Notes under the pieces: model-generated | Database searches by the model: none | What the model saw: the letters and a program-made list of their open reading frames with translations, nothing else | What the model was told of the DNA's origin: nothing | Shown here: positions 2,712 to 41,871 of the stretch, piece by piece | Numbering within the stretch: the stretch's first letter is position 1 | Layout: each line of letters begins with the position of its first letter | Source: Myxococcales bacterium | GTDB taxonomy: Bacteria; Myxococcota; Myxococcia; Myxococcales; Myxococcaceae | DNA length: 46,654 nucleotides | Direction of reading: 5' to 3' | Assembly (NCBI GenBank): GCA_038206395.1 | Contig: JBBRAX010000061.1 | Location: 1-46,654 of the forward strand | Position numbers and translations under genes: made by a program

Positions 2712-5030
2712 TCAGTCGTCAATCACCACCGACACGGCCGCGCTCTGGCCCTCGCGGTGCGCGAAGGCGGCGCGAATGGTGTGCGCTCCAGGGGAAAGGG
2801 GCACGCGCAATTCGTGGGGCCAGCCGACCTGGGCCACGGGGCTGCCGTCGACGAGCCAGACGATCTCTTCGGTCGCGGGCGCCACTTTCGCGGCGAGCCG
2901 AATCGTCGAGAGCTCGCGCGGGGTGTCGGGGTCGTAGAGGAAACGCGACAGCGCCCGCGGCTCGGTGATCGCAATCTTTGCCACCGCCGGCGCCGCGCTC
3001 GGACACAGCGGGCTCTCGCGCGTCGGAGCAATCTCCAGCCGCTGCCTTCTCGCCCACGTGCCGTACACCTCGGGCAGCATCAGCATCGCCTTCGACACCA
3101 CGTGCTTCACGGGACATGCCGCCGTCGCCAGCAGGCCGTTGCGCGCGTCGAGCTTCACCTTCGCGTGGAAGGGGCAGGGCGCAGACGGCTCGGTGCCCGG
3201 CGCGAAGAACTCGGTCTTCGACGACGTGCACTCGGGGCCGACGAGGCGGCCAGACAGCGGGCAGACTTCGCGCGGCACCCAGTGCGTCGGCGGCGCGAAC
3301 GCCGAGGCCCACGCGAGGTGCGGCGCGCGGAGCGGCATTACCGCTTCCATGATCTTGTGAGCGGCCGGTGCTGCGCCTCCTGCTCCGCTCACGCCGTTCA
3401 TCTTTCGCCAGTCGTGGTTGCCGACCCAGACGACGACCGACAGGCGATCGCTGAGCGCCACCGCCCACGCGTCGCGGTAGCCCTGGCTCGTGCCCGTCTT
3501 CACTGCCACGGCGTGGTCGAAGTCGAGCGGGCCCCCCTGCGGGAAGCCAGGCCGCCGCGCTTCGGGGTCCGCCAACAGGTGCGCGGTCATCTGCGCCGCG
3601 TCGCGCGAGATGAGCCGCGCGCTTTCCGCCGCGGGCTTGCCGACCCATCGCTGCAGCGGGCGTGTCTCGCCGCCATTGCCCAGCGACGAGTAGAGGTTCG
3701 CGAGCTCCAGCGGCGTCAGGTGAAGGCTGCCGATCGCGAGCGAGAGGCCGTAGCGATCGGGCGACCAGTCGATGCCTTTGACTCCGCCCCGCTCGAACAC
3801 GTTCAGCGCGCGTTCGACGCCGAGCTCGGAAAGAAGGTTGAGCGCGGGGATGTTTCGCGAGTTGCCGAGCGCCTGCCGCAGCAGCATCGGGCCCATGAAG
3901 GTGTGGCCCATGTTCTCGGGCACGTAGGCGCCGCCCTGCACGGTCGCGAACTCCGTCGGCACGTCGGGCATTTCGCTGGCCGCGGTGTGTGAGCCCTTCT
4001 CGAGCGCGAGCGCGTAGATGAAGGGCTTCAGCGTCGAGCCCGGCGAACGCTTCGTCGCGAGGAAATCGATCGCGCCCTTCGCTTCTTCGTCGAAGTAGTC
4101 GGCCGAGCCGACGTAGGCGAGGATCTCACCCGTCGAGACGTCAGACACCACCGCTGCCGAGTTCGTCGCGTTCGCCCAGTGCAGCCGGCGCAGGTTCTCG
4201 ACGACCGCGCGCGCGGTGAGCTTCTGGATGTCGAGATCGAGCGTCGAGGTGGAGATCAGCGGCGCGCCCGGCGCTCTGAGCTCGCGGCTCCAGGCGAGGA
4301 CGGCGTGCATCGCGGCAGGCGTGCGTTGCGGGCGCGGCACGAGGCCGAGGTTGGAAATGGTCGCCTGCCGGTAGTCTTCGCCGGTGAGAATTCCGCGGTC
4401 GCGCAGGTTCTGCAGGATGCGGCGCGACCGCTTCAGCGCGCGCGCTCTGCCTTCCTCCGTCCACGGGCTCATCCGCCCCGGCTGCTGCGGCAGCGCGGCG
4501 AGGAAGGCGGCCTGCTGCCACGAGAGGTCTTCCGCCGGCTTGTCGAAGTAGAGGCGGGCCGCGCGGACGACGCCGTGCGCGCGATTCCCGTACGGCGCGA
4601 GCGTCAGGTACTGCCGCAGCACCTGGTCGTGCCCATGCCTGCGAATCAGCAGCAGCGCCTCGCCGGCCTCGCGCGCTTTTGCCCACAGCGACCTCGACGC
4701 GGGGTGCTGCATACGGGCGACCTGCATCGCGAGCGTCGACGCGCCCGAGACCACCCGCCCATTGCGCAGGTTCTGCCAGACGGCCCGGATGATCGATGGC
4801 GCGTGCACGCCCGCGTGGTCGTGGAAGTAGCGGTCTTCCGTTTCGATCGTCGCGATCGCGACCTTCTCGGGAAGCGCCGCCGGCAACGGCCAATAACCGA
4901 GCGCGTCGTTCGGTGACGGCACCTCGCCGAGGTAGCGACCCCGGCGGTCGAGCAGCAGGTGCGACGGCGCGTGCGTCTGCAGCTCCGAGCTCAGCGCGTG
5001 GACGTAGAGCGCGCCCAGAAGAATCAGCAT
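2712..5030 (-). CDS. pbpC: Penicillin-binding protein 1C (bifunctional class A PBP: transglycosylase + transpeptidase)
   Basis: The ORF is open from 5264; the likely start is the ATG at 5030 (M-LILLGALYVHAL signal anchor), giving 772 aa, typical for PbpC. GT51-like N-terminal half (ATIETEDRYFHDHAGV, RVVSGASTLAMQVAR). Transpeptidase motifs: SPGSTLKPFIY (SxxK), SRN, KTGT. It has the C-terminal extension seen in PbpC. It lies immediately downstream of an alpha-2-macroglobulin gene, the classic yfhM-pbpC pairing. Confidence 0.8.
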   Translation of the reverse strand: MLILLGALYVHALSSELQTHAPSHLLLDRRGRYLGEVPSPNDALGYWPLPAALPEKVAIATIETEDRYFHDHAGVHAPSIIRAVWQNLRNGRVVSGASTLAMQVARMQHPASRSLWAKAREAGEALLLIRRHGHDQVLRQYLTLAPYGNRAHGVVRAARLYFDKPAEDLSWQQAAFLAALPQQPGRMSPWTEEGRARALKRSRRILQNLRDRGILTGEDYRQATISNLGLVPRPQRTPAAMHAVLAWSRELRAPGAPLISTSTLDLDIQKLTARAVVENLRRLHWANATNSAAVVSDVSTGEILAYVGSADYFDEEAKGAIDFLATKRSPGSTLKPFIYALALEKGSHTAASEMPDVPTEFATVQGGAYVPENMGHTFMGPMLLRQALGNSRNIPALNLLSELGVERALNVFERGGVKGIDWSPDRYGLSLAIGSLHLTPLELANLYSSLGNGGETRPLQRWVGKPAAESARLISRDAAQMTAHLLADPEARRPGFPQGGPLDFDHAVAVKTGTSQGYRDAWAVALSDRLSVVVWVGNHDWRKMNGVSGAGGAAPAAHKIMEAVMPLRAPHLAWASAFAPPTHWVPREVCPLSGRLVGPECTSSKTEFFAPGTEPSAPCPFHAKVKLDARNGLLATAACPVKHVVSKAMLMLPEVYGTWARRQRLEIAPTRESPLCPSAAPAVAKIAITEPRALSRFLYDPDTPRELSTIRLAAKVAPATEEIVWLVDGSPVAQVGWPHELRVPLSPGAHTIRAAFAHREGQSAAVSVVIDD

Positions 5031-5066
5031 TGAAGCGAGTCCGATCCGTTTGACGCGCTTCCGGGG

Positions 5067-5163
5067 ATCCCGAGAGAAGTCCCGCTGCCGTTCATCCCGA
5101 GAGAAGTCCCGCTGCCGTTCATCCCGAGAGAAGTCCCGCTGCCGTTCATCCCGAGAGAAGTCG
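5067..5163. repeat. 27-bp direct tandem repeat, about 3.6 copies (unit ATCCCGAGAGAAGTCCCGCTGCCGTTC)
   Basis: Three perfect copies at 5067-5093, 5094-5120 and 5121-5147, then a 16-bp partial copy at 5148-5163 that diverges. The repeat is open in all three frames on both strands; ORF-track peptides show DFSRDERQR x4, SREKSRCRS x4 and SLGMNGSGT x4. It lies in the spacer between the macroglobulin stop (5265) and the proposed pbpC start (5030). Confidence 0.9.
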
Positions 5164-5237
5164 AGGGATGATCTTCCTCCGCGCCCGGCACCTGAAGCCG
5201 TGCCACCGAGGCGGCCCATCCCTCGACTTCTCTCGGG
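5150..5237. repeat. 20-bp perfect inverted repeat (CCCGAGAGAAGTCGAGGGAT / ATCCCTCGACTTCTCTCGGG) with a 48-nt spacer; the left arm continues the tandem repeat
   Basis: 5150-5169 is the exact reverse complement of 5218-5237. The loop carries a further small inverted repeat (GGCAC...GTGCC near 5188-5204). The transcript of either strand could form a long hairpin. Confidence 0.85.
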
Positions 5238-5264
5238 ACGAACGGGCTGAAGCCGGGGCGCCAT

Positions 5265-8200
5265 CTACTTCTCGCGCGACCCGGTGACAGCGATGCGCAT
5301 GCCCTGGCCGCGGCCGCGAATGGACTCGCGGTACATCATCTCGGCGTACGGAGCGGGGTGCACGAAGCTGCCTTCTGAGCTGGCGCGCACGCGGAAGTGG
5401 AACCCGTACGTCCCCGCGGGAAGCTCGTTGAAGTAGTACCGAACCTCGTGGTCGAGGCGCTGGACGAAGGTCGGCGTCAGCGAGTCCGACCGCGAAGGCG
5501 TCGCGTCCGAGCCACTGGTCGCGAGGGCCGGGTTCAGCGGCTCGAGGCCCGCCGCGAAAGGCACCACGAAGGCGACATGGTTCCGCGTCTGGTCATTGAC
5601 GATCTGCGCGTGAAGCTCGAGCACATCGCCGATTCCCACCTTCAGCGTCTTCCCCGCCGCGTCGTCGTGGTTTGTCGGCGCCGAGTTGTCCGGGTGCAGC
5701 CACGTCAGCCCCCGGCTCACGACTAGGCCATCGTTCTTCGCCACCACGCGGTCGCCCGGCGCTTCCGGCAGGTAGCTGTACGCGACGCGGGCGCCCACCG
5801 GCGCTCCGCTGACCGTCACCAGCTGCTGCGTCGCCTGGTTGAGGAACCGCTTCGCCGCCTTGCCCTTGTCATCGAGGATCACGTTCGGCGTCCCCGGAAT
5901 TTCGACAGTGATTCGCGGCGTCTCGACGCGGGCCTTCTCGAAGTAGAGCCCCAGCGCCACGATGCCGCGGCGGTTGTCGTGCGTCGTCCCGAAGCCCCAC
6001 CGCGCGCTGCCCTTCGCAATCAAGCCGTCGCGCAGCAGCGCCAGCCTTTCGTCCTTCGGATCCATCGCCAGCAGCGCTTCCATCACCGCGGCCAGCGAGG
6101 ACGTGCTCGAGCCCAGGTAGTACCCGTTCCACGCGCTGCGATCTCCGCGGATCGAGTCGAACACCTTCTTGCCCTTCACCTGCTTGAACACCACCGCGTC
6201 CCACAGCTCGCTCTTCATCGCGGTGAGGTTCGAGGCGAACACGTTCGAGCGTTCGCCCATCGCGGCCGCGAGGTCGGCGAGGCTGGTCGGGTCGAGCTCC
6301 TTCCGGCGCTGGAAGAGCTCGATCATGTAGTGCTCGTCCAGCGCGTTGGCCTGAGCGAGCGCTCGAATTGCCGCCGCCTGCTGGTTCCACCGGTACTGCG
6401 CGTAGAAGCCGTTGAAGTCGCTGCGCAGCACCCGCTTCAGCGCCTCCATCGCGCGCGTCCGCACCTTCTCGTCCACCGGCAGCCCCAGCTTCTTCGCCGA
6501 CGTCATGAACTCGACGCCCTGCGCGGTGAGCGCCACGTCCCCTTTGCTGCCCGGCCAGTACGCGAAGAAGCCACCGTCGTCCTGGTTCTGCGACAGCTCT
6601 TCCAGCAGCCGCTTTACGTTCGAGTTGAGCATCGGCGTGAAGCGCGTCTCGAGCTCCAGCTGCTTCAGCATCTTGCCCAGCACCAGATCCGGAGCCACCT
6701 GGCTCATGCGCTGCTCCAGACACCCGTGCGGGTACTCAGACAGGTACTCGAGCCCGCTGGCCAGCTCCAACACGCCGGGCAGGCTCGTGACGACGAAGCT
6801 CTGCGTGATGGTTCCCGGCCGCGCCGGCTCGGGGAAGGGCTTCATCTGCGTCTTCCCGGGCTGCAGCGTCTCGATCCACGAGAACTTCTCGACGGTGCGA
6901 TCGGGCAACAGCGGCAGCTTCACCTCGAACGCATCGCCCGCCTTGTCCGACTGCCGCGTCACGTCCATTCGCACGGTGATCGACGTCGCGGCGATCGTCG
7001 GCACCGCCTTCACCGTCACTGGCGTCAGCACCGACTGCGCCTTGGCTGCCTTCAGGTCGATCTTCGTCGACGCGATCGGCGTGCCCTCGACCGCGCCCGT
7101 GACCTTGATGTCGATCGACGCCGGCCCTTCGGCCCCTTCGACCAGCCGCGCGACCCCGCCCGGCCAGAAGCGGTCTCCGACGCGGACGAAGCGCGGCAGC
7201 TGCGGCTGCACCAGCACCGGCAACCGAACCTTCAGCGTCGTCTGCTTGAACCCGAACCGCTGCGCGCCCGCCACCGCGACGACGCGCACCTTGAAGTTGG
7301 TGAGGTCGTCCGAGAGCGTCACTGGAATCACCACCTTCCCCGACGGAGGCACCGTCACCGTCGCCGCGTAGAAGGGCACCGTCTTGAAGTTCTTGCGAAC
7401 GAGGCGCTTGCCCTCGCCGTTCTCGTCGTCGCTGCCGTCACCGCCTGGGTCCTCTTCGAGCTCGGTGACGCGGCCGACCACCAGGTTGCGCGTGTCGCGA
7501 ATCGAGGTGCCGCGGCTGTTGCGGCGAATGAGCTCGCTCAACGGATCCAGCGTCGCCTCGCGCGCCAGTGACAGCACCGCTTCGTCGACCAGCCAGAAAG
7601 TGACTTCGCCGCCCACCGGGCGCTTCTGGTCGTCGGTGAGCAGAATCGTGAAGTCCTGCTTCGTGCCCGGCTTCGCCACCTCGGCGTGAAGCACCTCGAG
7701 CTTGACCAGGTTCTTCACCGGCTCGACCTCGAGATCCACGCTCGCCGCCGACGACGCTGGCTTGTAGCGCGCGTCGTCCGTCTTTCCCTCGCCCAGCCGG
7801 CCGCGCATCAGCACCACATGCACGGGGACGTTCGGCACGAACTTGTCGGTCACACGCACGTCGATGACCGCCTTGCCGCCGCTGACGTTGTGCCAGGTGT
7901 ACGTGTTGCCCGTCGGCTCTTCGACGATGACCAGCGCGCGGGCCGACGTGTACGGGCTCTGCACCAGCAGGTGCGCGGTGTCGCCCGGTGCGTACGTCTT
8001 CTTGTCCGGCTTCAGCTCGAAGACGCCTTCTTTCGATTTGTTCCACGACAGAGGCGTCTGCCCTCCGATGTAGAGGTCGGCCTGCATCGTCTGCACGCGG
8101 CCCAGCTTGTCGCGGCTGAAGAGCTCGACCACGTAGACGCCCGCTTCCTTCACGTCGAACGACAGAGGCAGCGGCTTGTCACCCGAGGTGACGATCTTCT

Positions 8201-11006
8201 CGGCGACCTGCAGGTCTTCCTGCTCGGTGACGTACTTTGCCTTTCCTGTGGCGAAGCTCGTCTCGCGAAGGTTCGAGTGCCACACCCGCCGAAACAGCCG
8301 GACGCGGACTTCCTGGCCCTTGACCAGCTTGTCGTCGACGCCGACTGCGAGCACCGACGGCTCGAGCGTGGTCGCCTTCTCGAGGTAGCGCGGCAGCTTC
8401 ATGCCCAGCACGAACGGCGGCAGCGCCTTCACCTCGGTCGTCGCGGTAATCGGCTGCTCATCGGGGCCGGTGACGGTCGCCTCGAACGTGTAGACGCGCG
8501 CGCTGCCGTCGAGGTCGAGCTGGGGGTTGATGGTGATGTCGGCCGCTCCGGTGTCGTCGAGCTCGCCAGCCTGCGTGGTGACGTCGGGCGCGCGCGCGCT
8601 GCCAGGCCTTGCGAACTGCGTCGAGCTGGCGAACAGGTAGCCGTCGAGGCCCTTCGGCATCCAGTGGTAGGGACGCTGCGTCACCGACCAGGCGATCGCC
8701 TGGTTCCCGACGTTGCCGCCCGCGTAGTAGCGCGCGACTGCCTTCACCTTGAACGCCGCATCCAACGGGACCTTCGTCTTCCCCGTCAGCTGCACCTCGA
8801 ACGTCGGCACGCGGTACGCCTCGATGCGGAACTGGCGGGTAGAAATCGTGCGCGACGGGTCGGCCTCGTACAGCGACGCGGTGAAGGTGCCCGTCGGGGT
8901 GTTCTTCTCGTCGAAGGTGCCCGCGAAGCCCGCGAGCGCAGACGTGGTGAGGGGAATCTTCCATTGCTGGCCGTCGGGCCCGGTGACGATGCAGCCGATC
9001 GACTTCTGCTGCGCCGCGGTCGGCAGCTTCAGCTCGCCGGCCTGCTTCACCCGCGCGAACCCCTTGAGAAACACCGGCTCGCCCGGCTTGTAGATGGCGC
9101 GCTCGCTGAAGAGAAAGCCCAGGGTGCCTTCGTTGGGAGACGCCGGCATCAGCTTCGTGGTGAGCCAGCCGAGCCAGTCGCCGCTGCTCGACCAGTGGTT
9201 GTTCGCGAAGCGCGGTGGGCTCTCGCGCGGGTCGAGCACGAGGGAGTCGTCGCCGCTGACGACGCTGATGCGGGTGATCGCTTCCCAGCCCACGCGCGGG
9301 CCGAGGTTGGCGCGGCCTTCGGCGTCGGTGGTGAAGGACTCTTTGACGATCGGGCTCCAGTTCTTCGGCGCCTGGAAGGGCTTGATGAGGCGGCCTTCGA
9401 GGGTGACGGTCGCTGAGCGAACGGCGTCGCCATCGTCGAGGGTGCGAACGTAGATGATTGCCTTGTCGCGCTCTTCCACCGAGGTGAGGGTCAGGTTGGT
9501 GACCTGCACGCGGACCCACGCGCGCTCTGAACGTCCCGTGAGCCGGCGCAGGCCGACCAGGTAGGTGCCTGGCTTGCTGGCGCCAGTGACCGGGTCGAGC
9601 AGCCCTTTCAAGTCGAGCCCGAACTGGGTGGTGTTGCCCTTGTCGCCCAGCGGCAGATCGATGACCTTGCTCACCAGTGGAGTGCCGAGCAGCCGGATGT
9701 GCTTCTGCAGGCTGTTGCTGTCGACGTAGCCCGGCATCGCCGGCACCTCGGGCTCTTCACCGGGAAACGGCGGCGCCGTCTGTTCGTCGATCACGATCGG
9801 CGACGACGGCCAGGGCCACAGCCCGTTGTGGAGCGCGTCGACCCGGTAGATCCGCACGTCCGCGCGCGCATCGCCGTAGCCGGTGATGGGCAGCATCCGT
9901 GGACCTTTCGATTCAACGATCGCGGTCGACTGGTTCCACTTGAGGAAGGCCGACTTCCACCCGAGGTGGAAGAAGACCTCGGCGGGCTTCACCTCGCGAA
10001 GGCCGCGGCCGCTGTCGTCGACAATCGGCGCGGGGCCCAGCGTCATCTTGTAGAGCGTGTCGGGCACGAAGCGGCCGGCCAGCTGCACGCGGCTGCCCGA
10101 GCTGGTGAAGCGCAGGTCGGCGACGGCGGGCTCGAGGCGCACGAGCTTGCGAAGGCTGGTGAGGGTGAGGTCGGCGACGGGCGCAGAGAACTCGAGCTGC
10201 GGAGCGTCGCCGCGGTTGCCGCACGCGAGGGCCAGGTCTTTCGGGGTCGACGCTCCGCCGAGAAGAGAGAACGCGTTGCTGCCGCAGCGCACGCTGGTGA
10301 GGCTGAAGGCGGTGCGGGTCGACGCGCGCCCCGTCCACAGCGTGGTGCCTTCGTTGCCCAGGGCGAGCGCGAGGCTGACCACCAGCTGCTTGCCTTCGGG
10401 CACGTCGTCTTCGAGGGTCAGCGCGTAGGTAGCGGGGTCGCGCTGCGACGCGCGCGGCAGTGGGGCGACGGCCCAGGTGTTGATCTTCCGGCGCGGCGAA
10501 TCGGCGAGGCCCGGCAGATCGCGCACCTCGAGGGTGAGCATCTTCTTCAGGCTCGGCAGGGCGAGCGCCTGCGGGAAGGTGAGGGTGACGACGCGGAAGG
10601 GCTTGAGGCCTTCAGCTGACGGGGCGGGCGACATCGCGCTCGGCGCGGACATCATCGTGGTCAGCGTGCGGGTGGTGCTGCCAGCGGTGAACTGAAAGCG
10701 CGCCAGCGCGGGCCACGGCTCGGCCGGTCGGAACTGCAGCGTGCGGCGGTCGACCCAGACGAAAGCGCCCGGCCAGTCGGGCACCATCTTCATCCGCTTC
10801 GGCCCGTCGTCCGCGTTCGCCTTCGACGCGACCACGTCGTCGGGGAAGTAGACGGTCACCGGGTCGTAGCCGCGCAGGAAGTCGTCCGGGAGGATCTTGA
10901 GGCCGCCCGCCGGGCGCTGCCCCTGGTCGGCCGGTGCGTACGTCTGGGCGTGAACGGGGAAGCTGAGCAGCGCCGTGAGGAGGACGGCGGAACAAGGCAC
11001 TTTCAC
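5265..11006 (-). CDS. Bacterial alpha-2-macroglobulin family protein (YfhM/ECAM-like, thioester-containing), secreted
   Basis: The ORF is open to 11183. The GTG at 11006 gives an ideal signal peptide (M-KVPCSAVLLTALLSFPVHA|QTYAP) and 1913 aa. An intact thioester motif YPHGCLEQRMSQ lies at nt 6711-6725 (GCLEQ). The long N-terminal region is compatible with an MG-domain array. pbpC follows downstream on the same strand. Confidence 0.85.
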   Translation of the reverse strand: MKVPCSAVLLTALLSFPVHAQTYAPADQGQRPAGGLKILPDDFLRGYDPVTVYFPDDVVASKANADDGPKRMKMVPDWPGAFVWVDRRTLQFRPAEPWPALARFQFTAGSTTRTLTTMMSAPSAMSPAPSAEGLKPFRVVTLTFPQALALPSLKKMLTLEVRDLPGLADSPRRKINTWAVAPLPRASQRDPATYALTLEDDVPEGKQLVVSLALALGNEGTTLWTGRASTRTAFSLTSVRCGSNAFSLLGGASTPKDLALACGNRGDAPQLEFSAPVADLTLTSLRKLVRLEPAVADLRFTSSGSRVQLAGRFVPDTLYKMTLGPAPIVDDSGRGLREVKPAEVFFHLGWKSAFLKWNQSTAIVESKGPRMLPITGYGDARADVRIYRVDALHNGLWPWPSSPIVIDEQTAPPFPGEEPEVPAMPGYVDSNSLQKHIRLLGTPLVSKVIDLPLGDKGNTTQFGLDLKGLLDPVTGASKPGTYLVGLRRLTGRSERAWVRVQVTNLTLTSVEERDKAIIYVRTLDDGDAVRSATVTLEGRLIKPFQAPKNWSPIVKESFTTDAEGRANLGPRVGWEAITRISVVSGDDSLVLDPRESPPRFANNHWSSSGDWLGWLTTKLMPASPNEGTLGFLFSERAIYKPGEPVFLKGFARVKQAGELKLPTAAQQKSIGCIVTGPDGQQWKIPLTTSALAGFAGTFDEKNTPTGTFTASLYEADPSRTISTRQFRIEAYRVPTFEVQLTGKTKVPLDAAFKVKAVARYYAGGNVGNQAIAWSVTQRPYHWMPKGLDGYLFASSTQFARPGSARAPDVTTQAGELDDTGAADITINPQLDLDGSARVYTFEATVTGPDEQPITATTEVKALPPFVLGMKLPRYLEKATTLEPSVLAVGVDDKLVKGQEVRVRLFRRVWHSNLRETSFATGKAKYVTEQEDLQVAEKIVTSGDKPLPLSFDVKEAGVYVVELFSRDKLGRVQTMQADLYIGGQTPLSWNKSKEGVFELKPDKKTYAPGDTAHLLVQSPYTSARALVIVEEPTGNTYTWHNVSGGKAVIDVRVTDKFVPNVPVHVVLMRGRLGEGKTDDARYKPASSAASVDLEVEPVKNLVKLEVLHAEVAKPGTKQDFTILLTDDQKRPVGGEVTFWLVDEAVLSLAREATLDPLSELIRRNSRGTSIRDTRNLVVGRVTELEEDPGGDGSDDENGEGKRLVRKNFKTVPFYAATVTVPPSGKVVIPVTLSDDLTNFKVRVVAVAGAQRFGFKQTTLKVRLPVLVQPQLPRFVRVGDRFWPGGVARLVEGAEGPASIDIKVTGAVEGTPIASTKIDLKAAKAQSVLTPVTVKAVPTIAATSITVRMDVTRQSDKAGDAFEVKLPLLPDRTVEKFSWIETLQPGKTQMKPFPEPARPGTITQSFVVTSLPGVLELASGLEYLSEYPHGCLEQRMSQVAPDLVLGKMLKQLELETRFTPMLNSNVKRLLEELSQNQDDGGFFAYWPGSKGDVALTAQGVEFMTSAKKLGLPVDEKVRTRAMEALKRVLRSDFNGFYAQYRWNQQAAAIRALAQANALDEHYMIELFQRRKELDPTSLADLAAAMGERSNVFASNLTAMKSELWDAVVFKQVKGKKVFDSIRGDRSAWNGYYLGSSTSSLAAVMEALLAMDPKDERLALLRDGLIAKGSARWGFGTTHDNRRGIVALGLYFEKARVETPRITVEIPGTPNVILDDKGKAAKRFLNQATQQLVTVSGAPVGARVAYSYLPEAPGDRVVAKNDGLVVSRGLTWLHPDNSAPTNHDDAAGKTLKVGIGDVLELHAQIVNDQTRNHVAFVVPFAAGLEPLNPALATSGSDATPSRSDSLTPTFVQRLDHEVRYYFNELPAGTYGFHFRVRASSEGSFVHPAPYAEMMYRESIRGRGQGMRIAVTGSREK

Positions 11007-14000
11007 TTGGCGACTCCGATGCGATTGAAGAGATCTCTGAGGTACTCGTCGGGCACGTCGGCCTTCGCGCCGGCGAGGCCCACGAGAACGGGCTTGAAGC
11101 GAAGCGCCGCGTTGCCGGACTTCGGCGGCTGGCGCACGGTGAGCAAGTAGCTGCCTTTGTCGAGCGACAGCAGCTGCTGGCACCCTTCGCCGAGCAGCTG
11201 GTACCCGTCGTTGTAGACGGCGCAGTCCAGCGACTCGCTGCGCGCCTGAATGCCGAGGCCGACCTTCCCCTTGCTGGCGGTCTGGAACCGGTAGACGCGC
11301 ACCTCTGCCGGGGAAATCCAGTCTTCCGCGCCGACCCCTTCTTTGAGCGCCGCGACGGGCTCAGAGGTCCACCGCAAGAGCCCAGGCCCGGTCTGACCTG
11401 CGAAGGGCCGCACCACGAGCCGGTAGGTGCCGGGCGACAACAGCCGCACCAGCTCACAGCCCGCGTCGAGCCCGTCGACGGCGAGCAGATCGTTTCCCTT
11501 GAACAACGCGCACACGCCCGACTCGGCCGTCACGCGCACCACCGCGTCCTTCTCGACCACGATCGCGCGATCCATCTTCGTGGTGCCAATCGGCACTGCG
11601 ACCGCGGGAAGCAGCGCAGCTGCTGGCGTCGCCGCGGGCTCGACCCCCAACCGTCCCTGCCGATCGCGGCCGGTGGGAAAGACGGCGGCGCGCATCGCTC
11701 CGGGGCGGTGCTCGAGAATCAGCTCGGCCGACGCACCCGCCGGAATCGTGGCGCGGCAGCCAGTGCTTCTCACGCCGTCCGACAGCGCGAGCAGGCAGCG
11801 GTCGACGTTGCCCTCGACCAGCACGGTGCGCTCGGCCGAACCGGTGGGGATCTTCAGCCGCATCGTGCCGGGCACCCGCGGCGCGTCTTCGTACAGGCCC
11901 GTCAGCGTCGAGCCCTTCTCGGCAGAATCGAGCAGCACGGTCGTCACGTCCGCCGCCGGCTCGGCCGAGGTGATCGCGACCCGCCCGCCCTTGCCCGTCA
12001 GCACGCACCGCGCGAGCACGCTGCCGCTGGGCGCGCAGAAGTCCACCGCGCCGCCCTTGTCGTCGAGCAGCACCGCCCACGCATCGACCGGCAGCGTGAG
12101 CTCGAGCCGCGCGCGCGCACCGGGCGGCAGCGCGAAGACGCCCGCCTCGTCGACCCAGTTCAACCGGCGGCGGCCTGGCACCAACGCCTCGGCCTTCGAC
12201 GGCAACTTCAGCGCTCGGTACTCGAGCTTCGCCGTCACGGGAGTCTCGGGGTTGACCGGCGTCCAGGCGCGCATCACCGCCGTCGAGGTCACGCCCGTCG
12301 CTGCGAAGCACGTGCTGTCGCGCCCTTCACGAACGTTGCCCGGCCCATCGAAGCCACACGACGGCGACGTGCGCTCGCCGTGCGGCACCTGCCCGGTGAG
12401 CAGGAAGAGCGCCGTCGGCCCTTCGAACGCTTGAAGGTACGGCAGCCGCGACAAGCCTGCCTGGCTCGACTCGAGCTTCGACGAGAGCTCGAGGTTGACC
12501 GGATCCAGCGACACCTTCTGGTCGTCCTTGCCGAACGCCGCGAACACCGCCGGCCCCGCTTCCAGCGACACCTCGGGCCCACACGCGCGCAGCAGGCCGC
12601 GCTGATTCCCGGCGATGCAGAAGACGAAGGGCGAAGTCTTGAATCTGCCGGCGCTCTGCAAATTCTTCGAGCCGGCCGTCGCGCCATCGAGCGTGCTGCC
12701 GGTGAAGGGCTCGATCGGCCGCGACTTGTAGCCGACCGTCACCTGCGCACTGCCGTCGGTGGTCCACACCCGCACCCGGAACTTCTCGGTCATTGGGCGC
12801 ACCAGCAGGCCGCAGCTCGTGACGCGGCTCTGGCGATGCACGACCTGGCCCTGGCCGTCTTCCAGCGCGCAGGAAATCGGGGTCTTGTTGCTCTTGAAGG
12901 TCAGCTCGGCCACCGAGTCCTTCTCGGCTACGGGAATCGCGAAGGTCTGAACGGACGCCGCGAGCTTGAGCGCCGCAGCGTCGGTGACCAGGCCCTTGTC
13001 TTCCACCGCCGCGAGGGCGACCGACAGCTTCGTCTCGCCGCGCTGCTGGGTCTCGCTCTCGAGCACCAGCGTGTAGTTGCCCTTCACCACCGGCTCGGCG
13101 AGCGCGCAGTTCCAGTCGGCGCCGTTGTCGCTTCCTTCGAACACCAGCGTGCCCTTCTCGTCGAACAGCCGGCAGCGCACGTCGGCCTCGCCTTCGGTGC
13201 GCAGGCGCAGCGTGCCGTCACGGGGGACTTTCAGCGGCAGCGTGGTGGGCGTCGGCAGCGTGCGCGTCATCCCCGGCACCAGGGTGTCGCTGCCGAGGTG
13301 CAGCCGGTAGTCGACCCCCACGTTGCCGCGGCTGTGCTCGGCGACAATCTTGTACTGGCCCGGCGGCAGCGTGACCTTCACGCCCGACGGCGTCGTCGGC
13401 GGTCTGACTGCCTGCACAGCGGCGGCGCCCGCCGTCGTCCGTTCTTCTTCCTGCTCGCCTTCTTCTCCGCCGTCCTCGTCGTTCTCTTCGCGAGGCGGTT
13501 CTTCTTCGCGGTAGCCCTCTTCCTCGTCGCTGTCCTCGTTCGACGACTCGGCAATGGCTCGCGGGGGAATCACCTCGACCGCGCGCGGCGCCTTGTCCGT
13601 CTCGAGCAGGAAGATGCGGCCCTGCATTCCGCCCGTCAGCACCACGTCCAGCGTCAGCTCGCCCTCGAGCTTGAAGGTGAACTCGTCTTTTCCGTCGGGC
13701 CCAAGCTTCGCCGCGTACCAGGTGTGGAAATCGATTCCGTGCGGCTTGTTGCCCTTCAGCACCAGCGCCTCTTTCACCTTCTCGAGCCGCGTGCGGCGCA
13801 TCGACTCGACGGTCAGCGGCAGCTGCGTCCACAGGTAGGTGCCCGCGGGCAGGAAGCGGTTGCCGACGCACGCGGAAGGCACGGTCTCGATTGGCCAACC
13901 CTGCGCGTCATCGAGGCGGCACAGCAGCGATACGCCCTGGCCGGTGGTGCCCAGCGCGAAGTCCGCGTCGGCCTTCACGTTCAGCTTCTGCTGCACCAGC

Positions 14001-17650: not shown

Positions 17651-17674
17651 TCTTCGATCGAATTCGATCGAAGA
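17651..17674. promoter_or_regulatory. Perfect 24-bp palindrome TCTTCGATCGAATTCGATCGAAGA (two tandem copies of the 10-bp palindrome TTCGATCGAA); candidate operator, copy 1
   Basis: Exactly self-complementary. Embedded in a locally lower-GC stretch. Flanked by CCCACCCG at 17636-17643 and GGTGGGTT at 17693-17700, an imperfect outer inverted repeat. Confidence 0.5.
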
Positions 17675-17767: not shown

Positions 17768-17787
17768 GTCAAAGTTTTCGATCGAAT
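17768..17787. promoter_or_regulatory. Second copy of the perfect 20-bp palindrome TTCGATCGAATTCGATCGAA; candidate operator, copy 2
   Basis: Identical 20-mer 115 bp from copy 1 (centre to centre). About 225 bp upstream of the NfeD/flotillin/ATPase gene block. A 9-bp inverted repeat CGCAGTGCG/CGCACTGCG lies just upstream (about 17738-17755). Confidence 0.5.
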
Positions 17788-18012
17788 TCGATCGAATCGC
17801 TTTCGGGTCTCGCGGCAGCGACGGGAGTCGTCGCGGCGAGGTGGTCGCCCGCCCGGCGGTGGTGAGCCGATCAAGCCAGCCAATCGGAATCGGCCAGCGT
17901 CCTCGGCGCGGGGCTCAGGCGGATCGCTGCCAGGAAGCCGAGACGGGGCGGCGCGATCGCCGTGAAGCGCTTCACTCGATTCACTGGCTGCCTTGTAGAC
18001 TCGCGCGCACGC

Positions 18013-39409: not shown

Positions 39410-41260
39410 ATGCTCTTCTCGACCCTCTTCTTGATCGTGGCCGCGGCGCCTCTTCCCAAAGAGTGCGAGCCGCCGCCGCTGCGTGACGTCGCGCCAATCA
39501 AGGAACTCGCCAACCTCGACGGCGCCTTCTCGGCCGGCCTCGACGCCGTCGCCACCTGGTGCTTCGACAGCGCAGGCAACTGGAACGCGGGCCAGCTGGG
39601 AAAGCCGAAGAAGCCGATTGCGGCCGACGCTCCGCCGCAGGGCGATTGTCTGAAGGCGATTGCCTCGTGTGAGGGCACCAACGAGACGGTGACGAACAAG
39701 GCGCCGCTTCGAGAGCTCGCCAACAACGCGCTCGCCGACTTCGATCGTCCGTACCGCAACGCGAAGTACGTGCCGAAGCGGTCGGGGTTGAAGGAAGCGC
39801 CGTCGCAGGCCGCGAACTGCCGCAGCAAGAGCCGCACCGAGCTGTTCGCGATGGCGCAGCAGCGCATGGACGTCGCGCGGCTCACCTCTCAGGTGCTCAA
39901 CGAGTACGCGAACTACAAGACGTGGCTCTTCAGCAAGGGCATCGACTGCAAGAACGAGGTTGCCGCCGCGCCGAAGAAGGACTCGACGAAGACGGGCCTG
40001 TCGATCGACTCGAACATCGATCCAAATGCGATCGCGACACCGGTGCTCGCGTCGAAGGACCCCGAGACGGCCGCCGCGCTCAAGTTGCCGATGGTCGACA
40101 AGTGGAAGTTCTTCTCGAAGCAGCAGGCAAGGGTGGAGGCCGACCGCGACTACACGCTCGGCTTCCTCGCTTCGCGCGAGCTGCGCACGTGTGACTGCGC
40201 CCGCGTGAATCCGGCCGCGGTCGTTCGTGCGCTCGAGAGCAAGACGGGCGAGGCGGGCATCGCGCTGCTGACCTCAGAAGATCCGGCCAACACCCGCTGC
40301 GCCGTCTGCATGTTCGAGGTCTTCCCGCTGTGGAGCACCCGCGCGCAGAAGCAGTGTTCTTCTCTCGACGGACTCTCGGATGCCGACCTCGCCAAGCTCG
40401 AGAAGTCTGACGACGCCAGCGGCCTTCCTCCGCGCTGCCTCGAAGAGACGAAGGCGAATCGCGCAGCCAAGGTCGCGGCGCGCGTGCCCGTGACCACGGC
40501 AGTCTCGCCGACTGTTTCGCTGTCGACCGCTCCGGGCGCCAAGCCGGGGACGCCGGGTGGGCCCGTGACTGCGCCTCCCGTGGCTCCACCTGGAAATGTT
40601 GCCGCGACGGGAACTGCGGCGGCGCCCGTCGCTCCAGTCGCGAAGGCACCGGGAAGTGGCATCGCGCCGCTCGCGATGAACCCGATGGATGCCGGGGTCA
40701 GTGTTGCGAGGGCGCCGGGCAGCGGCATCGCGCCGCTCGCGATGACTCCGATGGATGCGGGGGCCACTGTCGCGAATCCCCACCTTCAGACGGTTGACGG
40801 CTACACGTACTACCGCCCGCCCACCGCCGGCTCGCCCAACACCGCGGCGGTTCCCGCGACGGGTGGGACCCCTTCGCCCGCGGCTGTCGCTGCAAAGCCC
40901 GTCGATGCCGGAGCGCCGGCTCCGGTCGCCGCCGCTGCCCCTCTCACCGGCCCAGGCATTCCCACCGGGCCGCTCGGCTATGTGGCCCCCGCGACCTGGG
41001 CCCCGATTCCGCAGCGCGAAGACGGCCGCATCTACGTGCGCCTCTTCATGAGCAGCTCGTGCATTGCCGACGTCGAGCCCGGCCCGTTGCAGGCGCGCAC
41101 CGGCGACCTGTTGTTGCTGCCCTTCGAAGCCAAAGCGCTGCAGGTGAAGAGCCCCTGCGGAGGACTTGCCGAGGTGTACTTCGGCCGCGAGGCCCGCCCC
41201 CGCGTGTCAGAGAATTTCGGTAGCAACCGGCCGCTCAAGTTCGAGTTCAAGAGACAGTGA
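39410..41260 (+). CDS. Secreted hypothetical protein with Pro/Ala-rich linker and internal 22-aa tandem repeat
   Basis: 616 aa. Signal peptide MLFSTLFLIVAAAPLP. Cys-containing N-terminal domain. Pro/Ala/Gly-rich low-complexity middle with tandem APGSGIAPLAM[NT]PMDAG[VA][ST]VA (nt about 40645-40776). Conserved-looking C-terminal domain (RIYVRLFMSSSCIADVEPG...). The start is 6 bp after the CGL stop. Confidence 0.6.
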   Translation: MLFSTLFLIVAAAPLPKECEPPPLRDVAPIKELANLDGAFSAGLDAVATWCFDSAGNWNAGQLGKPKKPIAADAPPQGDCLKAIASCEGTNETVTNKAPLRELANNALADFDRPYRNAKYVPKRSGLKEAPSQAANCRSKSRTELFAMAQQRMDVARLTSQVLNEYANYKTWLFSKGIDCKNEVAAAPKKDSTKTGLSIDSNIDPNAIATPVLASKDPETAAALKLPMVDKWKFFSKQQARVEADRDYTLGFLASRELRTCDCARVNPAAVVRALESKTGEAGIALLTSEDPANTRCAVCMFEVFPLWSTRAQKQCSSLDGLSDADLAKLEKSDDASGLPPRCLEETKANRAAKVAARVPVTTAVSPTVSLSTAPGAKPGTPGGPVTAPPVAPPGNVAATGTAAAPVAPVAKAPGSGIAPLAMNPMDAGVSVARAPGSGIAPLAMTPMDAGATVANPHLQTVDGYTYYRPPTAGSPNTAAVPATGGTPSPAAVAAKPVDAGAPAPVAAAAPLTGPGIPTGPLGYVAPATWAPIPQREDGRIYVRLFMSSSCIADVEPGPLQARTGDLLLLPFEAKALQVKSPCGGLAEVYFGREARPRVSENFGSNRPLKFEFKRQ

Positions 41261-41799
41261 GCCACACCCCCCACGTCAGCGGAAGGCTCGTCGCCGGCCT
41301 CTTCGAGAAGGGGCTCGCCGGTCAGGTCACTCCGCAGCTCGAGGCGCGCCTTGCGTCCGAAGGCATCGAGCTCAACAACTTCAAGGCGACCTACCCGTAC
41401 GCCGCCTGGGTTCGCGGCCTCGAGATCACTGCCGCCGAGCTCTACAGCGGCGAGGTGCTCAGCGATGCCCTTCGCAAGCTCGGCTCTCGCGTCGTCCGCA
41501 CGCTGAAAGACCAGGGCGTCGTCAACGGGCCGATGATCAGCATGGGCAAGCTGATGGGTCCCCGACGCGTGCTCAAGCAGATCCACAACCAGCCCGTGCG
41601 CGGCGCCGCCTTTCTGAAAGTGCAGGTGGTCGAGAAGGGGAAGACCCACCTCGAGATCCACTGCAACGACGGAGCGATCGGCGACTTCGTCTCTGGCGCC
41701 CTCGAGGCCATCGTCGAGTTGCTCGGTGGCCACGCCCCGCGCGTGCAGCCGGCGATCACCACCCCCGAGCGCTGCGTTCTCGACGTCGTCTGGCGCTAG
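41257..41799 (+). CDS. Hypothetical protein, DUF2378-like (myxobacterial paralogous family)
   Basis: 180-aa ORF with high GC3. The GTG start overlaps the upstream stop (GTGA). The sequence (VSGRLVAGLFEKGLAG...ATYPYAAWVRGLEI...) resembles DUF2378, a family I recall as myxobacteria-specific. That assignment is from memory and unverified. Confidence 0.45.
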   Translation: MSHTPHVSGRLVAGLFEKGLAGQVTPQLEARLASEGIELNNFKATYPYAAWVRGLEITAAELYSGEVLSDALRKLGSRVVRTLKDQGVVNGPMISMGKLMGPRRVLKQIHNQPVRGAAFLKVQVVEKGKTHLEIHCNDGAIGDFVSGALEAIVELLGGHAPRVQPAITTPERCVLDVVWR

Positions 41800-41822: not shown

Positions 41823-41849
41823 TGCGTAAGGCTCACCCCTCGACTTCTC
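41823..41849. terminator. Candidate bidirectional terminator hairpin between convergent genes (TCACCCC-N13-GGGGTGA)
   Basis: A 7-bp GC-rich inverted repeat at 41823-41829 / 41843-41849 in the 72-bp gap between two convergent stops. No clear U-tract. Confidence 0.3.
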
Positions 41850-41871
41850 GGCGGGGTGAACTGAACGCACC

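What the first reader, a model, noticed from the sequence alone, without database searches (positions are those of the whole stretch)
5031..5264. Structured 234-bp spacer between the macroglobulin gene and pbpC: 27-bp tandem repeat (3.6x) fused to a 20-bp perfect inverted repeat
In E. coli, yfhM and pbpC abut. Here they are separated by a spacer containing three perfect plus one partial copy of ATCCCGAGAGAAGTCCCGCTGCCGTTC (5067-5163). The last copy forms the left arm of a 20-bp perfect inverted repeat (5150-5169 with 5218-5237) with a 48-nt loop, and the loop carries its own small hairpin. All three frames on both strands stay open across the repeat, typical of GC-rich repeats but also the source of the misleading extended pbpC ORF. 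Candidate roles: an intra-operon attenuator or RNase processing site setting the macroglobulin:PbpC ratio; a REP/MITE-like element (88 bp with 20-bp terminal inverted repeats); or a slippage-prone contingency locus. It is not CRISPR, because there are no spacers.
Basis: seen in the sequence. Interest (0 to 1): 0.6.

Follow-up and report, generated by a model that had tools for sequence, protein, structure and literature searches.

The report
Dispersed palindromic repeat inside pbpC start
The "structured spacer" between the macroglobulin gene and pbpC is one copy of a short palindromic repeat (REP-like) found at dozens of sites in this myxobacterial genome; here it sits in frame at the very start of pbpC and varies in copy number between strains, so it is an ordinary kind of selfish repeat, not a purpose-built regulator.

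Summary
The sequence features are real: a perfect 27-nt x3.6 tandem array (5067-5162) joined to a long inverted repeat (38-nt arms, 5142-5179/5208-5245) that folds at -84.6 kcal/mol. It is not locus-specific. The 21-nt core of the repeat and arm occurs at 51 or more distinct loci in metagenome contigs of the same population. It appears there as single small hairpins, inverted doublets, and end-derived tandem arrays with periods of 19-66 nt. That is a REP/REPIN-like dispersed family without target-site duplications. Here the element lies on the coding strand, directly after an ATG that abuts the macroglobulin stop codon (TAGATG). It is stop-free and in frame with pbpC. The annotated start (ATG 5030) cuts the membrane anchor in half and drops its basic patch, so the repeat is probably translated as a 68-residue cytoplasmic N-terminal extension, (DFSRDERQR)n. 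This step is inferred, at about 60%. Near-identical populations carry 1.6, 3.6 or 4.6 copies, always in frame. Other family members sit in frame inside real genes, for example a benzoate-CoA ligase homologue. Regulatory side effects, such as an RNase III substrate or a translation barrier, are possible but untested. Verdict: new member of a known kind, modest interest.

The parts
5265..11183 (-). Alpha-2-macroglobulin (YfhM-like) gene. Its stop codon TAG is at 5265-5267.
   Evidence: ORF list. Pfam MG2, A2M_BRD, A2M and bMG10 domains.
2712..5264 (-). Longest pbpC ORF (850 aa). It starts at ATG 5262-5264, directly abutting the macroglobulin stop codon (TAGATG).
   Evidence: TIGR02073 PBP_1c scores 495.6 bits. 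The insert-free relative L002 has the same ...GAGAAGTAGATG junction.
5208..5245 (-). REP-like unit A, the 5' arm of the hairpin in mRNA sense, in inverted orientation (CCGTTCGTCCCGAGAGAAGTCGAGGGATGGGCCGCCTC). It contains the in-frame ATG 5217-5219 buried in the stem.
   Evidence: the repeat finder I1. nhmmer family model hit 5205-5245, E = 1.4e-13.
5180..5207 (-). Locus-specific 28-nt loop between the two REP units. It forms a weaker imperfect extension of the stem.
   Evidence: Loop sequence and length differ between family copies; doublets are 97-151 nt.
5142..5179 (-). REP-like unit B, the 3' arm of the hairpin. Its outer 21 nt are also the first unit of the tandem array.
   Evidence: nhmmer hit 5142-5182, E = 3.4e-14.
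5067..5162 (-). Minisatellite derived from the REP end: 27 nt x 3.6 = [GACTTCTCTCGGGATGAACGG + CAGCGG]n. In the pbpC frame it encodes (DFSRDERQR)n. It is a VNTR with alleles of 1.6, 3.6 and 4.6 copies.
5046..5063 (-). Codons 68-73, RKRVKR: the basic patch that precedes the membrane anchor. It aligns with the MKRxxRR N-termini of homologues, but no start codon precedes it here (CGG AAG CGC instead of ATG AAG CGC).
   Evidence: Alignment A1.
4989..5045 (-). Codons 74-92, IGLASMLILLGALYVHALS: the predicted transmembrane anchor. The annotated start ATG 5028-5030 (M79) lies inside it.
   Evidence: Kyte-Doolittle 19-residue mean is 1.92 for the full segment and 1.20 when started at M79. Homologues give 2.0-2.5.
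41829..41863 (+). Second, diverged single copy of the same repeat family (GGCTCACCCCTCGACTTCTCGGCGGGGTGAAC), lying between convergent ORFs. The stem is kept by a compensatory change (CACCCC/GGGGTG instead of CATCCC/GGGATG).
   Evidence: nhmmer E = 0.0017; sequence; ORFs; fold -16.7 kcal/mol, z = -3.0.

Best explanation
The 234 bp between the annotated pbpC start and the macroglobulin stop codon is a copy of a dispersed REP/REPIN-like palindromic repeat family of this uncultured Myxococcota lineage. The copy has two parts. One is an inverted doublet of two ~38-nt units (104 nt, 5142-5245). The other is a minisatellite (27 nt x 3.6) made of the outer 21 nt of the unit plus a 6-nt linker, a form of reiteration seen at more than half of the family's loci. 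The element sits just downstream of an ATG that abuts the macroglobulin stop codon, and it is stop-free and in frame with pbpC. The most likely reading (inferred, about 60%) is that PbpC initiates at ATG 5264 by coupling to termination of the upstream gene. The ribosome then reads through the element, giving PbpC a disordered Arg/Asp-rich cytoplasmic tail 68 residues longer than in insert-free relatives. The tail length changes in 9-residue steps as the array expands or contracts by slippage. The element is best seen as tolerated selfish or neutral DNA. Its very stable 30-bp hairpin may incidentally affect the operon mRNA, as an RNase III substrate, a decay barrier or a ribosome pause, but that is a generic by-product and not a dedicated control device.
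For: Shown by tool results:
- The repeat and inverted repeat are real and highly non-random.
- The 21-nt core occurs in 66 metagenome stretches, 51 distinct loci. These lie on many large contigs of the same samples that hold >=99.5%-identical copies of this locus. Their GC content (0.65-0.69) and tetranucleotide correlation with the window (0.97-0.99) are compatible with, though do not prove, the same genome.
- Family anatomy: a single unit is a small hairpin. Inverted doublets of 97-151 nt have sharp CCGTTC...GAACGG ends and no target-site duplication. Of 51 loci, 28 carry end-derived tandem arrays with periods of 19-66 nt.
- Most copies lie between ORFs. Some lie in frame inside real genes. 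A benzoate-CoA-ligase homologue carries a ~47-residue insertion, relative to PDB 2v7b, exactly at the array. Others are a Ser/Thr kinase and a FecR protein.
- All 5 ORF-embedded arrays have periods divisible by 3, against 11 of 23 elsewhere (p = 0.044).
- At this locus there is no ATG, GTG or TTG in frame between 5219 and 5030.
- Residues 68-78 upstream of M79 align with the basic patch and first half of the membrane anchor of homologues. Hydropathy is 1.92 against 1.20.
- The TAGATG junction is identical in insert-free L002.
- Alleles with 1, 3 and 4 full units are all open and in frame.

Inferred:
- Use of ATG 5264 as the start.
- Translation of the repeat.
- Slippage as the source of copy-number change.
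- Any effect on the mRNA.
Against: - Both JGI and NCBI gene callers start pbpC at ATG 5030, giving 772 aa.
- Many homologues are also called with short, uncharged hydrophobic N-termini, so a truncated anchor might suffice.
- GC3 of codons 1-78 is 0.63, against 0.89 for the rest of the gene. The region therefore does not look like host coding sequence, although this is expected for a recent insertion.
- An open in-frame insert is not rare by chance in this GC-rich DNA: about 47% of random 204-nt segments lack stops, times 1/3 for frame.
- A -84.6 kcal/mol hairpin starting at +20 would hinder elongation.
- There is no expression, proteomic or ribosome-profiling data.
- No cognate transposase was found, so mobility is inferred from the distribution only.
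- Copy-number differences come from short-read assemblies and could in part be assembly artefacts.
Confidence: 0.6

Rival explanations
1. The same dispersed REP-like element, but extragenic. On this reading pbpC starts at the annotated ATG 5030. The element is an untranslated intercistronic insert whose hairpin acts like classical intercistronic REPs. It would protect the upstream macroglobulin mRNA segment from 3' exonucleases, or be cut by RNase III, uncoupling and lowering pbpC expression.
For: Gene callers choose ATG 5030. Codon-position GC of the region is non-coding-like. The 30-bp duplex is long enough in principle for RNase III (established knowledge of RNase III substrates). Relatives L086 and L088 have a REP unit in a truly non-coding spacer just upstream of their pbpC ATG. 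REPs are mostly extragenic in this family.
Against: Starting at M79 removes the basic patch and 5 residues of the anchor that are conserved in frame upstream. There is no recognisable Shine-Dalgarno sequence before ATG 5030. The frame stays open from the coupled ATG through every copy-number allele.
Confidence: 0.3
2. A dedicated, locus-specific regulator (attenuator or processing site) evolved to set the macroglobulin:PbpC ratio.
For: There is a strong hairpin at an operon junction. A REP-type unit is found at the same junction in at least four related lineages: the window, L086, L088 and L090. In L088 its GAGGGA lies 7 nt before the pbpC ATG.
Against: The same sequence is present at 51 or more unrelated loci. 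The closest insert-free relative (84% PbpC identity) has none. There is no U-run or terminator motif and no Rfam family. Copy number drifts between near-identical populations.
Confidence: 0.07
3. A classical MITE mobilised by a DDE transposase that recognises the terminal inverted repeats.
For: Terminal inverted repeats of ~38-45 nt, small size (97-151 nt), and many copies.
Against: There are no target-site duplications at 17 doublets. The internal sequence and length are variable. Solitary half-units are common and are hairpins themselves. No full-length element with these ends was found; the 1.3-kb-spaced pair in L043 just flanks an ordinary gene.
Confidence: 0.08
4. A slippage-prone contingency locus that switches pbpC on and off.
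For: A perfect tandem array with copy-number polymorphism of 1.6, 3.6 and 4.6.
Against: The unit is 27 nt (9 codons), so no allele changes the frame. Only the tail length would vary.
Confidence: 0.04

Closest known systems
REP / REPIN elements (repetitive extragenic palindromes; doublets mobilised by RAYT transposases), including REP clusters reiterated in tandem (BIME-like)
   Same: The basic unit is a ~33-nt imperfect palindrome. It occurs at many dispersed copies, mostly just downstream of genes or between convergent genes. Inverted doublets fold into long hairpins and there is no target-site duplication. Clusters occur in which units are reiterated in tandem together with short pieces of flanking DNA, and occasional copies lie inside ORFs, especially near N-termini. 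Both of the last two features are described for REPs in PMC3733652.
   Different: The majority of copies carry no terminal GTAG or CGTC tag. No RAYT gene was found in the 724 kb available (a weak test). The reiterated unit is only the outer 14-21 nt of the repeat plus a 0-12-nt linker, and such arrays occur at more than half of the loci.
Rickettsia palindromic elements (RPEs)
   Same: Palindromic dispersed repeats that insert in frame into protein-coding genes and are carried as extra peptide segments (review PMC10969869). Here five of the six frames of the core are open, and copies lie in frame in a CoA ligase, a kinase, a FecR protein and probably PbpC.
   Different: RPEs are ~100-150 bp, belong to Rickettsia, and are predominantly intragenic. 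This family is unrelated in sequence and mostly intergenic, and it adds tandem arrays.
MIRUs (mycobacterial interspersed repetitive units)
   Same: From my own knowledge (Supply et al. 1997): these are dispersed minisatellites located between genes of operons. Their small ORFs overlap the stop and start codons of the flanking genes, and they are copy-number polymorphic (used for VNTR typing). The window's array is likewise a VNTR at an operon junction, opening at a TAGATG stop/start junction.
   Different: MIRU units are 46-101 bp and are not built on a palindromic REP. The sequences are unrelated. Here the array is continuous with the downstream gene rather than forming a separate mini-ORF.
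Intercistronic REP in E. coli malE-malF, and Correia/NEMIS elements as RNase III substrates
   Same: From my own knowledge: transcribed palindromic repeats inside operons form stable hairpins that stabilise upstream mRNA or are cleaved by RNase III, changing the relative expression of neighbouring genes. The 30-bp stem here could act in the same way.
   Different: No expression data exist for this locus. Here the hairpin lies inside the probable coding sequence of the downstream gene.

Membership tests
REP/REPIN | Short (20-40 nt) imperfect palindromic unit | tested here: met
   The 33-nt consensus unit folds as a 7-9-bp stem with an inner 2-bp helix. Energies are -10.7 and -17.4 kcal/mol on the two strands, z = -2.5 and -5.7.
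REP/REPIN | Many dispersed copies, predominantly extragenic, close to gene ends | tested here: met
   51 distinct loci in metagenome contigs of the same population. Most are bounded by ORF ends. The complete genome was not available, so the total copy number is unknown.
REP/REPIN | Inverted doublets of two units separated by a short spacer (REPIN) | tested here: met
   17 distinct doublets of 34-151 nt, most of them 97-151 nt, including the window's 104-nt one.
REP/REPIN | Conserved GTAG or CGTC tetranucleotide at one end (superfamilies of PMC3733652) | tested here: inconclusive
   The outer end is CCGTTCATCCC in most copies. Only the minority CCGTTCGTCCC variant (the window's unit A) contains CGTC, and there it is internal. 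No fixed GTAG appears in the column consensus.
REP/REPIN | Cognate RAYT (Y1 transposase) gene, usually flanked by the repeats | tested here: inconclusive
   tblastn with RAYT and IS200 TnpA sequences recalled from memory found nothing below E = 0.6 in 724 kb of fetched loci. This covers only part of the genome and the queries are unverified.
MITE | Terminal inverted repeats | tested here: met
   38-nt arms, 87% complementary. The family consensus extends to ~42 nt.
MITE | Target-site duplication flanking the element | tested here: not met
   No direct repeats flank any of the 17 doublets. The CCCCGG on both sides in the window is 7 nt away from the left end and is not seen elsewhere.
MITE | Parent insertion sequence with the same ends | not testable with these tools
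   This needs the complete genome. The only widely spaced inverted pair examined (L043) flanks a Gly-rich lipoprotein gene, not a transposase.
RPE-like in-frame coding insertion | Element lies inside an ORF, in frame, with homologous protein sequence on both sides | tested here: met
   Met for the family. In L061 the PF00501 match spans the insert. The alignment to 2v7b breaks at query residues 124-190 against chain residues 151-170. For the window the insert lies between the start codon and the membrane anchor, so only the downstream side can be compared.
Intrinsic terminator / attenuator | GC-rich hairpin followed by a U-run | tested here: not met
   No terminator-like site in 5031-5264 on either strand. 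The hairpin is followed by CAGCGGGAC.
Known structured RNA family (Rfam) | Match at or above the gathering score | tested here: not met
   The only hits are sub-threshold matches of the long hairpin to plant and animal miRNA precursors, 33.5 bits against a threshold of 75.
CRISPR | Repeats separated by unique spacers of similar length | tested here: not met
   Units are contiguous and identical, including the 6-nt linker.

The most novel reading that the evidence does not exclude
The REP unit at the macroglobulin-pbpC junction is not just tolerated but has been co-opted. It is present at this same junction in at least four lineages. It would supply the ribosome-binding region or start context for pbpC, together with a long RNase III-type hairpin. 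In this lineage it would also supply a length-variable Arg/Asp-rich cytoplasmic tail whose copy number tunes PbpC level or activity relative to the macroglobulin it is thought to partner. More broadly, this repeat family would be a generator of in-frame peptide minisatellites in myxobacterial proteins.
Probability: 0.1. Interest if true: 0.6.

Novelty: new member of a known kind. Interest (0 to 1): 0.3.

Why it matters
The practical consequence is for annotation. The pbpC start in this lineage is probably mis-called, and the apparent intergenic spacer is repeat-derived coding sequence. The repeat family also breaks short-read assemblies and creates copy-number artefacts. Biologically it adds a myxobacterial example to the short list of palindromic repeats that are carried in frame inside genes (RPEs, and some REPs), with the twist that its ends seed minisatellites. 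If the tail is translated, a peptidoglycan synthase carries a hypervariable cytoplasmic extension. The finding does not reveal a new regulatory principle.

Tried and rejected
- Rfam scan of 4700-5600 at a permissive threshold: only sub-threshold miRNA-precursor noise caused by the long hairpin.
- Promoter and terminator scan: nothing in the spacer.
- Search for a transposase. The inverted pair 1.3 kb apart in L043 flanks an ordinary Gly-rich lipoprotein gene. tblastn with recalled RAYT and IS200 sequences found nothing. This test is weak, because it covers only part of the genome and the queries came from memory.
- Target-site duplication test on 17 doublets: none found.
- Full-text literature search for four 13-14-nt pieces of the consensus, and for myxobacterial REP or MITE reports: no description of this family.
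- ATG 5219 as the start: rejected as unlikely. It is buried in the 30-bp stem and GAGGG abuts it with no spacing.
- Assembly artefact for the whole feature: rejected, because seven further assembled contigs plus the window carry it with identical sequence outside the array.
- Using L090 as independent proof of read-through: rejected, because it has the same ambiguity, an internal GTG inside the anchor.

Full report
**1. Observation**

Both genes are on the minus strand. The macroglobulin ORF is 5265-11183 (MG2, A2M_BRD, A2M and bMG10 domains). The pbpC ORF is 2712-5264, and matches TIGR02073 PBP_1c at 495.6 bits.

Tandem Repeats Finder confirms a perfect 27-nt array at 5067-5162 with 3.6 copies. 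The perfect 20-nt inverted repeat is at 5149-5168 / 5219-5238. It extends to 38-nt arms at 5142-5179 / 5208-5245.

On the mRNA-sense strand, 5141-5246 folds into an uninterrupted 30-bp stem at -84.6 kcal/mol, z = -11.5. The array alone is not unusually structured (z = 0.17).

Two details of the finding do not hold. One minus-strand frame carries a TGA in each unit, so not all six frames are open. The palindromic unit is 104 nt, not 88. E. coli yfhM and pbpC do abut exactly.

**2. The region is in frame with pbpC**

Read on the coding strand, the sequence is ...GAGAAG TAG ATG GCG..., so an ATG (5262-5264) directly follows the macroglobulin stop. The frame then runs without a stop through the hairpin and the array into pbpC:

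MAPRLQPVRPERSRGMGRLGGTASGAGRGGRSSL(DFSRDERQR)3DFSRDPRKRVKRIGLASM79LILLGALYVHAL....

There is no ATG, GTG or TTG in frame between 5219 and 5030.

The annotated start (M79; JGI and NCBI both aa) lies inside the hydrophobic anchor. Residues 68-78 (RKRVKRIGLAS) align with the MKRxxRRxAxAS N-termini of close homologues. The best 19-residue hydropathy mean is 1.92 for I74-S92 and 1.20 from M79; homologues give 2.0-2.5.

The nearest insert-free relative, L002/L003 (84% PbpC identity), has the same ...CGCGAGAAGTAGATG junction followed at once by MKKRAAAIVVLL.... Relative to it, the window has 68 extra codons.

Codon-position GC of codons 1-78 is 0.73/0.60/0.63, against 0.70/0.51/0.89 for the rest. The extension therefore has the composition of foreign or non-coding DNA. 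That is expected of a recent insert and does not settle whether it is translated.

**3. The element is dispersed**

The 21-mer shared by the array unit and both hairpin arms is GACTTCTCTCGGGAYGAACGG. It was searched in the public collections.
- It occurs in 66 metagenome stretches, which collapse to 51 distinct loci.
- Most are on large contigs of the very samples (Ga0209181, Ga0105046-48, Ga0335397) that also hold >=99.5%-identical copies of this pbpC locus.
- These loci have GC 0.65-0.69 and tetranucleotide correlations of 0.97-0.99 with the window. Chance hits in unrelated organisms give 0.87-0.90 or lower.
- In the species-representative genomes, the 21-mer recurs on 11 contigs of an Archangium sp. 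MAG and on 2 contigs of an Archangiaceae MAG.
- Inside the 46.6-kb window there is only the pbpC copy, plus one diverged singlet at 41829-41863 between convergent ORFs. The singlet keeps its stem through a compensatory CACCCC/GGGGTG change.

**4. Anatomy of the family**

- The conserved end is about CTCTGCGGAGGCTCATCCCTCGACTTCTCTCGGGATGAACGG, and conservation stops sharply after GAACGG.
- A single unit is itself a small hairpin (TCATCCC...GGGATGA).
- Units occur alone, or as inverted doublets with variable inner sequence: 34-151 nt overall, mostly 97-151 nt. No doublet has a target-site duplication.
- At 28 of 51 loci the outer end is followed by a tandem array of [0-12-nt locus-specific linker + outer 14-21 nt of the unit]. 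In some cases whole units are reiterated. Periods are 19, 21, 22, 23, 24, 25, 26, 27, 29, 33, 36, 42, 45, 58 and 66.
- Contigs often end in these arrays.

[quoted passage not shown] The window's 27-nt repeat is thus the local instance of a family-wide habit, not a special device.

**5. Coding context elsewhere**

Most copies lie between ORF ends. Several are in frame inside genuine genes.
- In L061 the array lies within the AMP-binding domain match. The alignment to benzoate-CoA ligase 2v7b is interrupted exactly there: 66 query residues against 19 in the structure.
- In L045 the array lies in the linker of a Ser/Thr kinase.
- In L047 it lies in a FecR protein.
- In L062 the element bridges a topoisomerase and a RecQ reading frame.

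All five ORF-embedded arrays, counting the window's, have periods divisible by three, against 11 of 23 others (one-sided Fisher p = 0.044). This is weaker if the window is left out. It is the pattern known from Rickettsia palindromic elements (PMC10969869). It makes translation of the pbpC copy plausible.

**6. Copy-number variation**

Seven further assembled contigs carry the complete locus, and their pbpC coding sequence differs from the window's by only 10-12 of 2319 nt. An eighth contig, L097 (3 differences), breaks off inside the array, so its copy number cannot be read. The seven carry 1 full unit (L092), 3 full units (L051 and L095, two fetches of contig Ga0105047_10000206, as in the window) or 4 full units (L001, L093, L094, L096). 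The rest of the 234 bp is identical in all of them.

The array is therefore a VNTR. Because the unit is nine codons, no allele shifts the frame, which rules out frameshift phase variation. Short-read assembly could distort copy numbers, so this needs long-read confirmation.

**7. The junction in relatives**

- L087, L089 and L090 have overlapping stop/start calls.
- L086 (76% identity) has a 217-nt non-coding spacer ending in a degenerate unit, CCGCTCACCCCGAGCGAAGTGGAGAGGAG, 3 nt before its ATG AAG CGC.
- The L088 contig begins with CCGTTCATCCCGAGCGAAGTCGAGGGAC, 7 nt before ATG AAG CGT.
- L090 has a degenerate unit read in frame as AAVHPERARK.

The short segment between the stop codon and the unit is alignable between the window, L090 and L086. 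A REP-type unit at this junction is therefore either old, and lost in L002, or the site is a hot spot. In the window the position of the relatives' ATG reads CGG AAG CGC, which again pushes initiation upstream or downstream. I could not decide between ancestry and recurrent insertion.

**8. Mechanism**

Shown: identity as a dispersed REP-like element, in-frame placement, the hairpin, and the VNTR.

Inferred:
- Initiation at ATG 5264 by termination-reinitiation at TAGATG. The hairpin starts at +20, just beyond the region that an initiating 30S subunit covers (established ribosome-footprint knowledge).
- Read-through giving a longer, disordered cytoplasmic tail, with 22 K+R and 12 D+E in residues 1-78.
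- Array length changes by replication slippage.

ATG 5219 is unlikely, because it is buried in the stem and has no spacing to GAGGG. No promoter-like or terminator-like motif lies in the region, and no Rfam family matches. A 30-bp duplex is a plausible RNase III substrate or decay barrier, as for REPs and Correia elements in other operons (my own knowledge). I treat this as a generic by-product.

**9. Classification and verdict**

The element meets the structural and distributional features of REP/REPIN families. The GTAG/CGTC tag and the cognate RAYT could not be established. The MITE criterion of target-site duplication is not met. No paper in the searchable library describes this sequence.

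I file it as a new member of a known kind. Its preferred reading as a locus-specific structured spacer is not supported, while its REP/MITE alternative is. The 'misleading' long ORF is probably the real one. My confidence that the element is a dispersed REP-like repeat is about 0.9. My confidence in the full explanation, including translation of the repeat, is about 0.6. Interest is modest (0.3).

Noticed in passing
window 41829-41863: A diverged single copy of the same repeat family lies between convergent ORFs (ending at 41799 or 41864 on the plus strand, and 41872 on the minus strand). Its stem is kept by a compensatory change, CACCCC/GGGGTG instead of CATCCC/GGGATG.
   Followed up: partly
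L061 4513-4665 (also L029): A repeat unit plus a 24-nt x6 array lies in frame inside the AMP-binding domain of a benzoate-CoA-ligase homologue. It adds about 47 residues (STSLGMNGTDALGMNG...) just before the YTSGSTGxPK motif.
   Followed up: yes
L062 5706-5919: A repeat doublet plus a 42-nt array joins a topoisomerase III-like ORF and a RecQ-like ORF in one open frame of 1454 aa. This is either a gene fusion or a stop-free intergenic region. RecG (L027) also has a 66-nt array at its 5' end. PMC3733652 notes REPs inside replication and repair genes.
   Followed up: partly
L011, L014, L036, L040/L048/L068 (flanks of the repeat ends): Unrelated microsatellites directly abut the outer ends of the elements, for example CTTCTTCTCCCC, CTCTCCT and GGACAGGAGGAGTGGAAG arrays. 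The element ends seem to seed tandem repeats of whatever lies next to them. The mechanism is unexplained.
   Followed up: no
L086 2960-3003; L088 1-39; L090 395-425: Related lineages (74-76% PbpC identity) also carry a unit of this repeat type at the macroglobulin-pbpC junction. In L088 its GAGGGA lies 7 nt upstream of the pbpC ATG, like a ribosome-binding site. This reflects either an ancestral insertion or an insertion hot spot.
   Followed up: partly
L070-L085 (Archangium sp. MAG GL44_UP_metabat_111): In this MAG the same 21-mer is embedded in a longer composite repeat of ~200 nt, present on at least 11 contigs. The composite has several CCCGAGCGxAGTCGAGGG hairpins and an AT-rich core (GAAATAGAAATGACTCC).
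   Followed up: no
L005, L018, L029, L038, L097 and others (contig ends): Many metagenome contigs terminate inside these arrays. The family is therefore a frequent assembly breakpoint, and copy numbers from short reads should be treated with caution.
   Followed up: no
window 40637-40776; 17653-17672 and 17777-17797: A 66-nt x2.1 tandem repeat (83% matches), and two nearby TTCGATCGAA x2 palindromic mini-repeats, were listed by Tandem Repeats Finder. They were not examined.
   Followed up: no
window 5265-11183: The macroglobulin ORF is 1972 aa from the first GTG, but it is called as 1913 aa in the sibling contigs. Its start is also uncertain.
   Followed up: no
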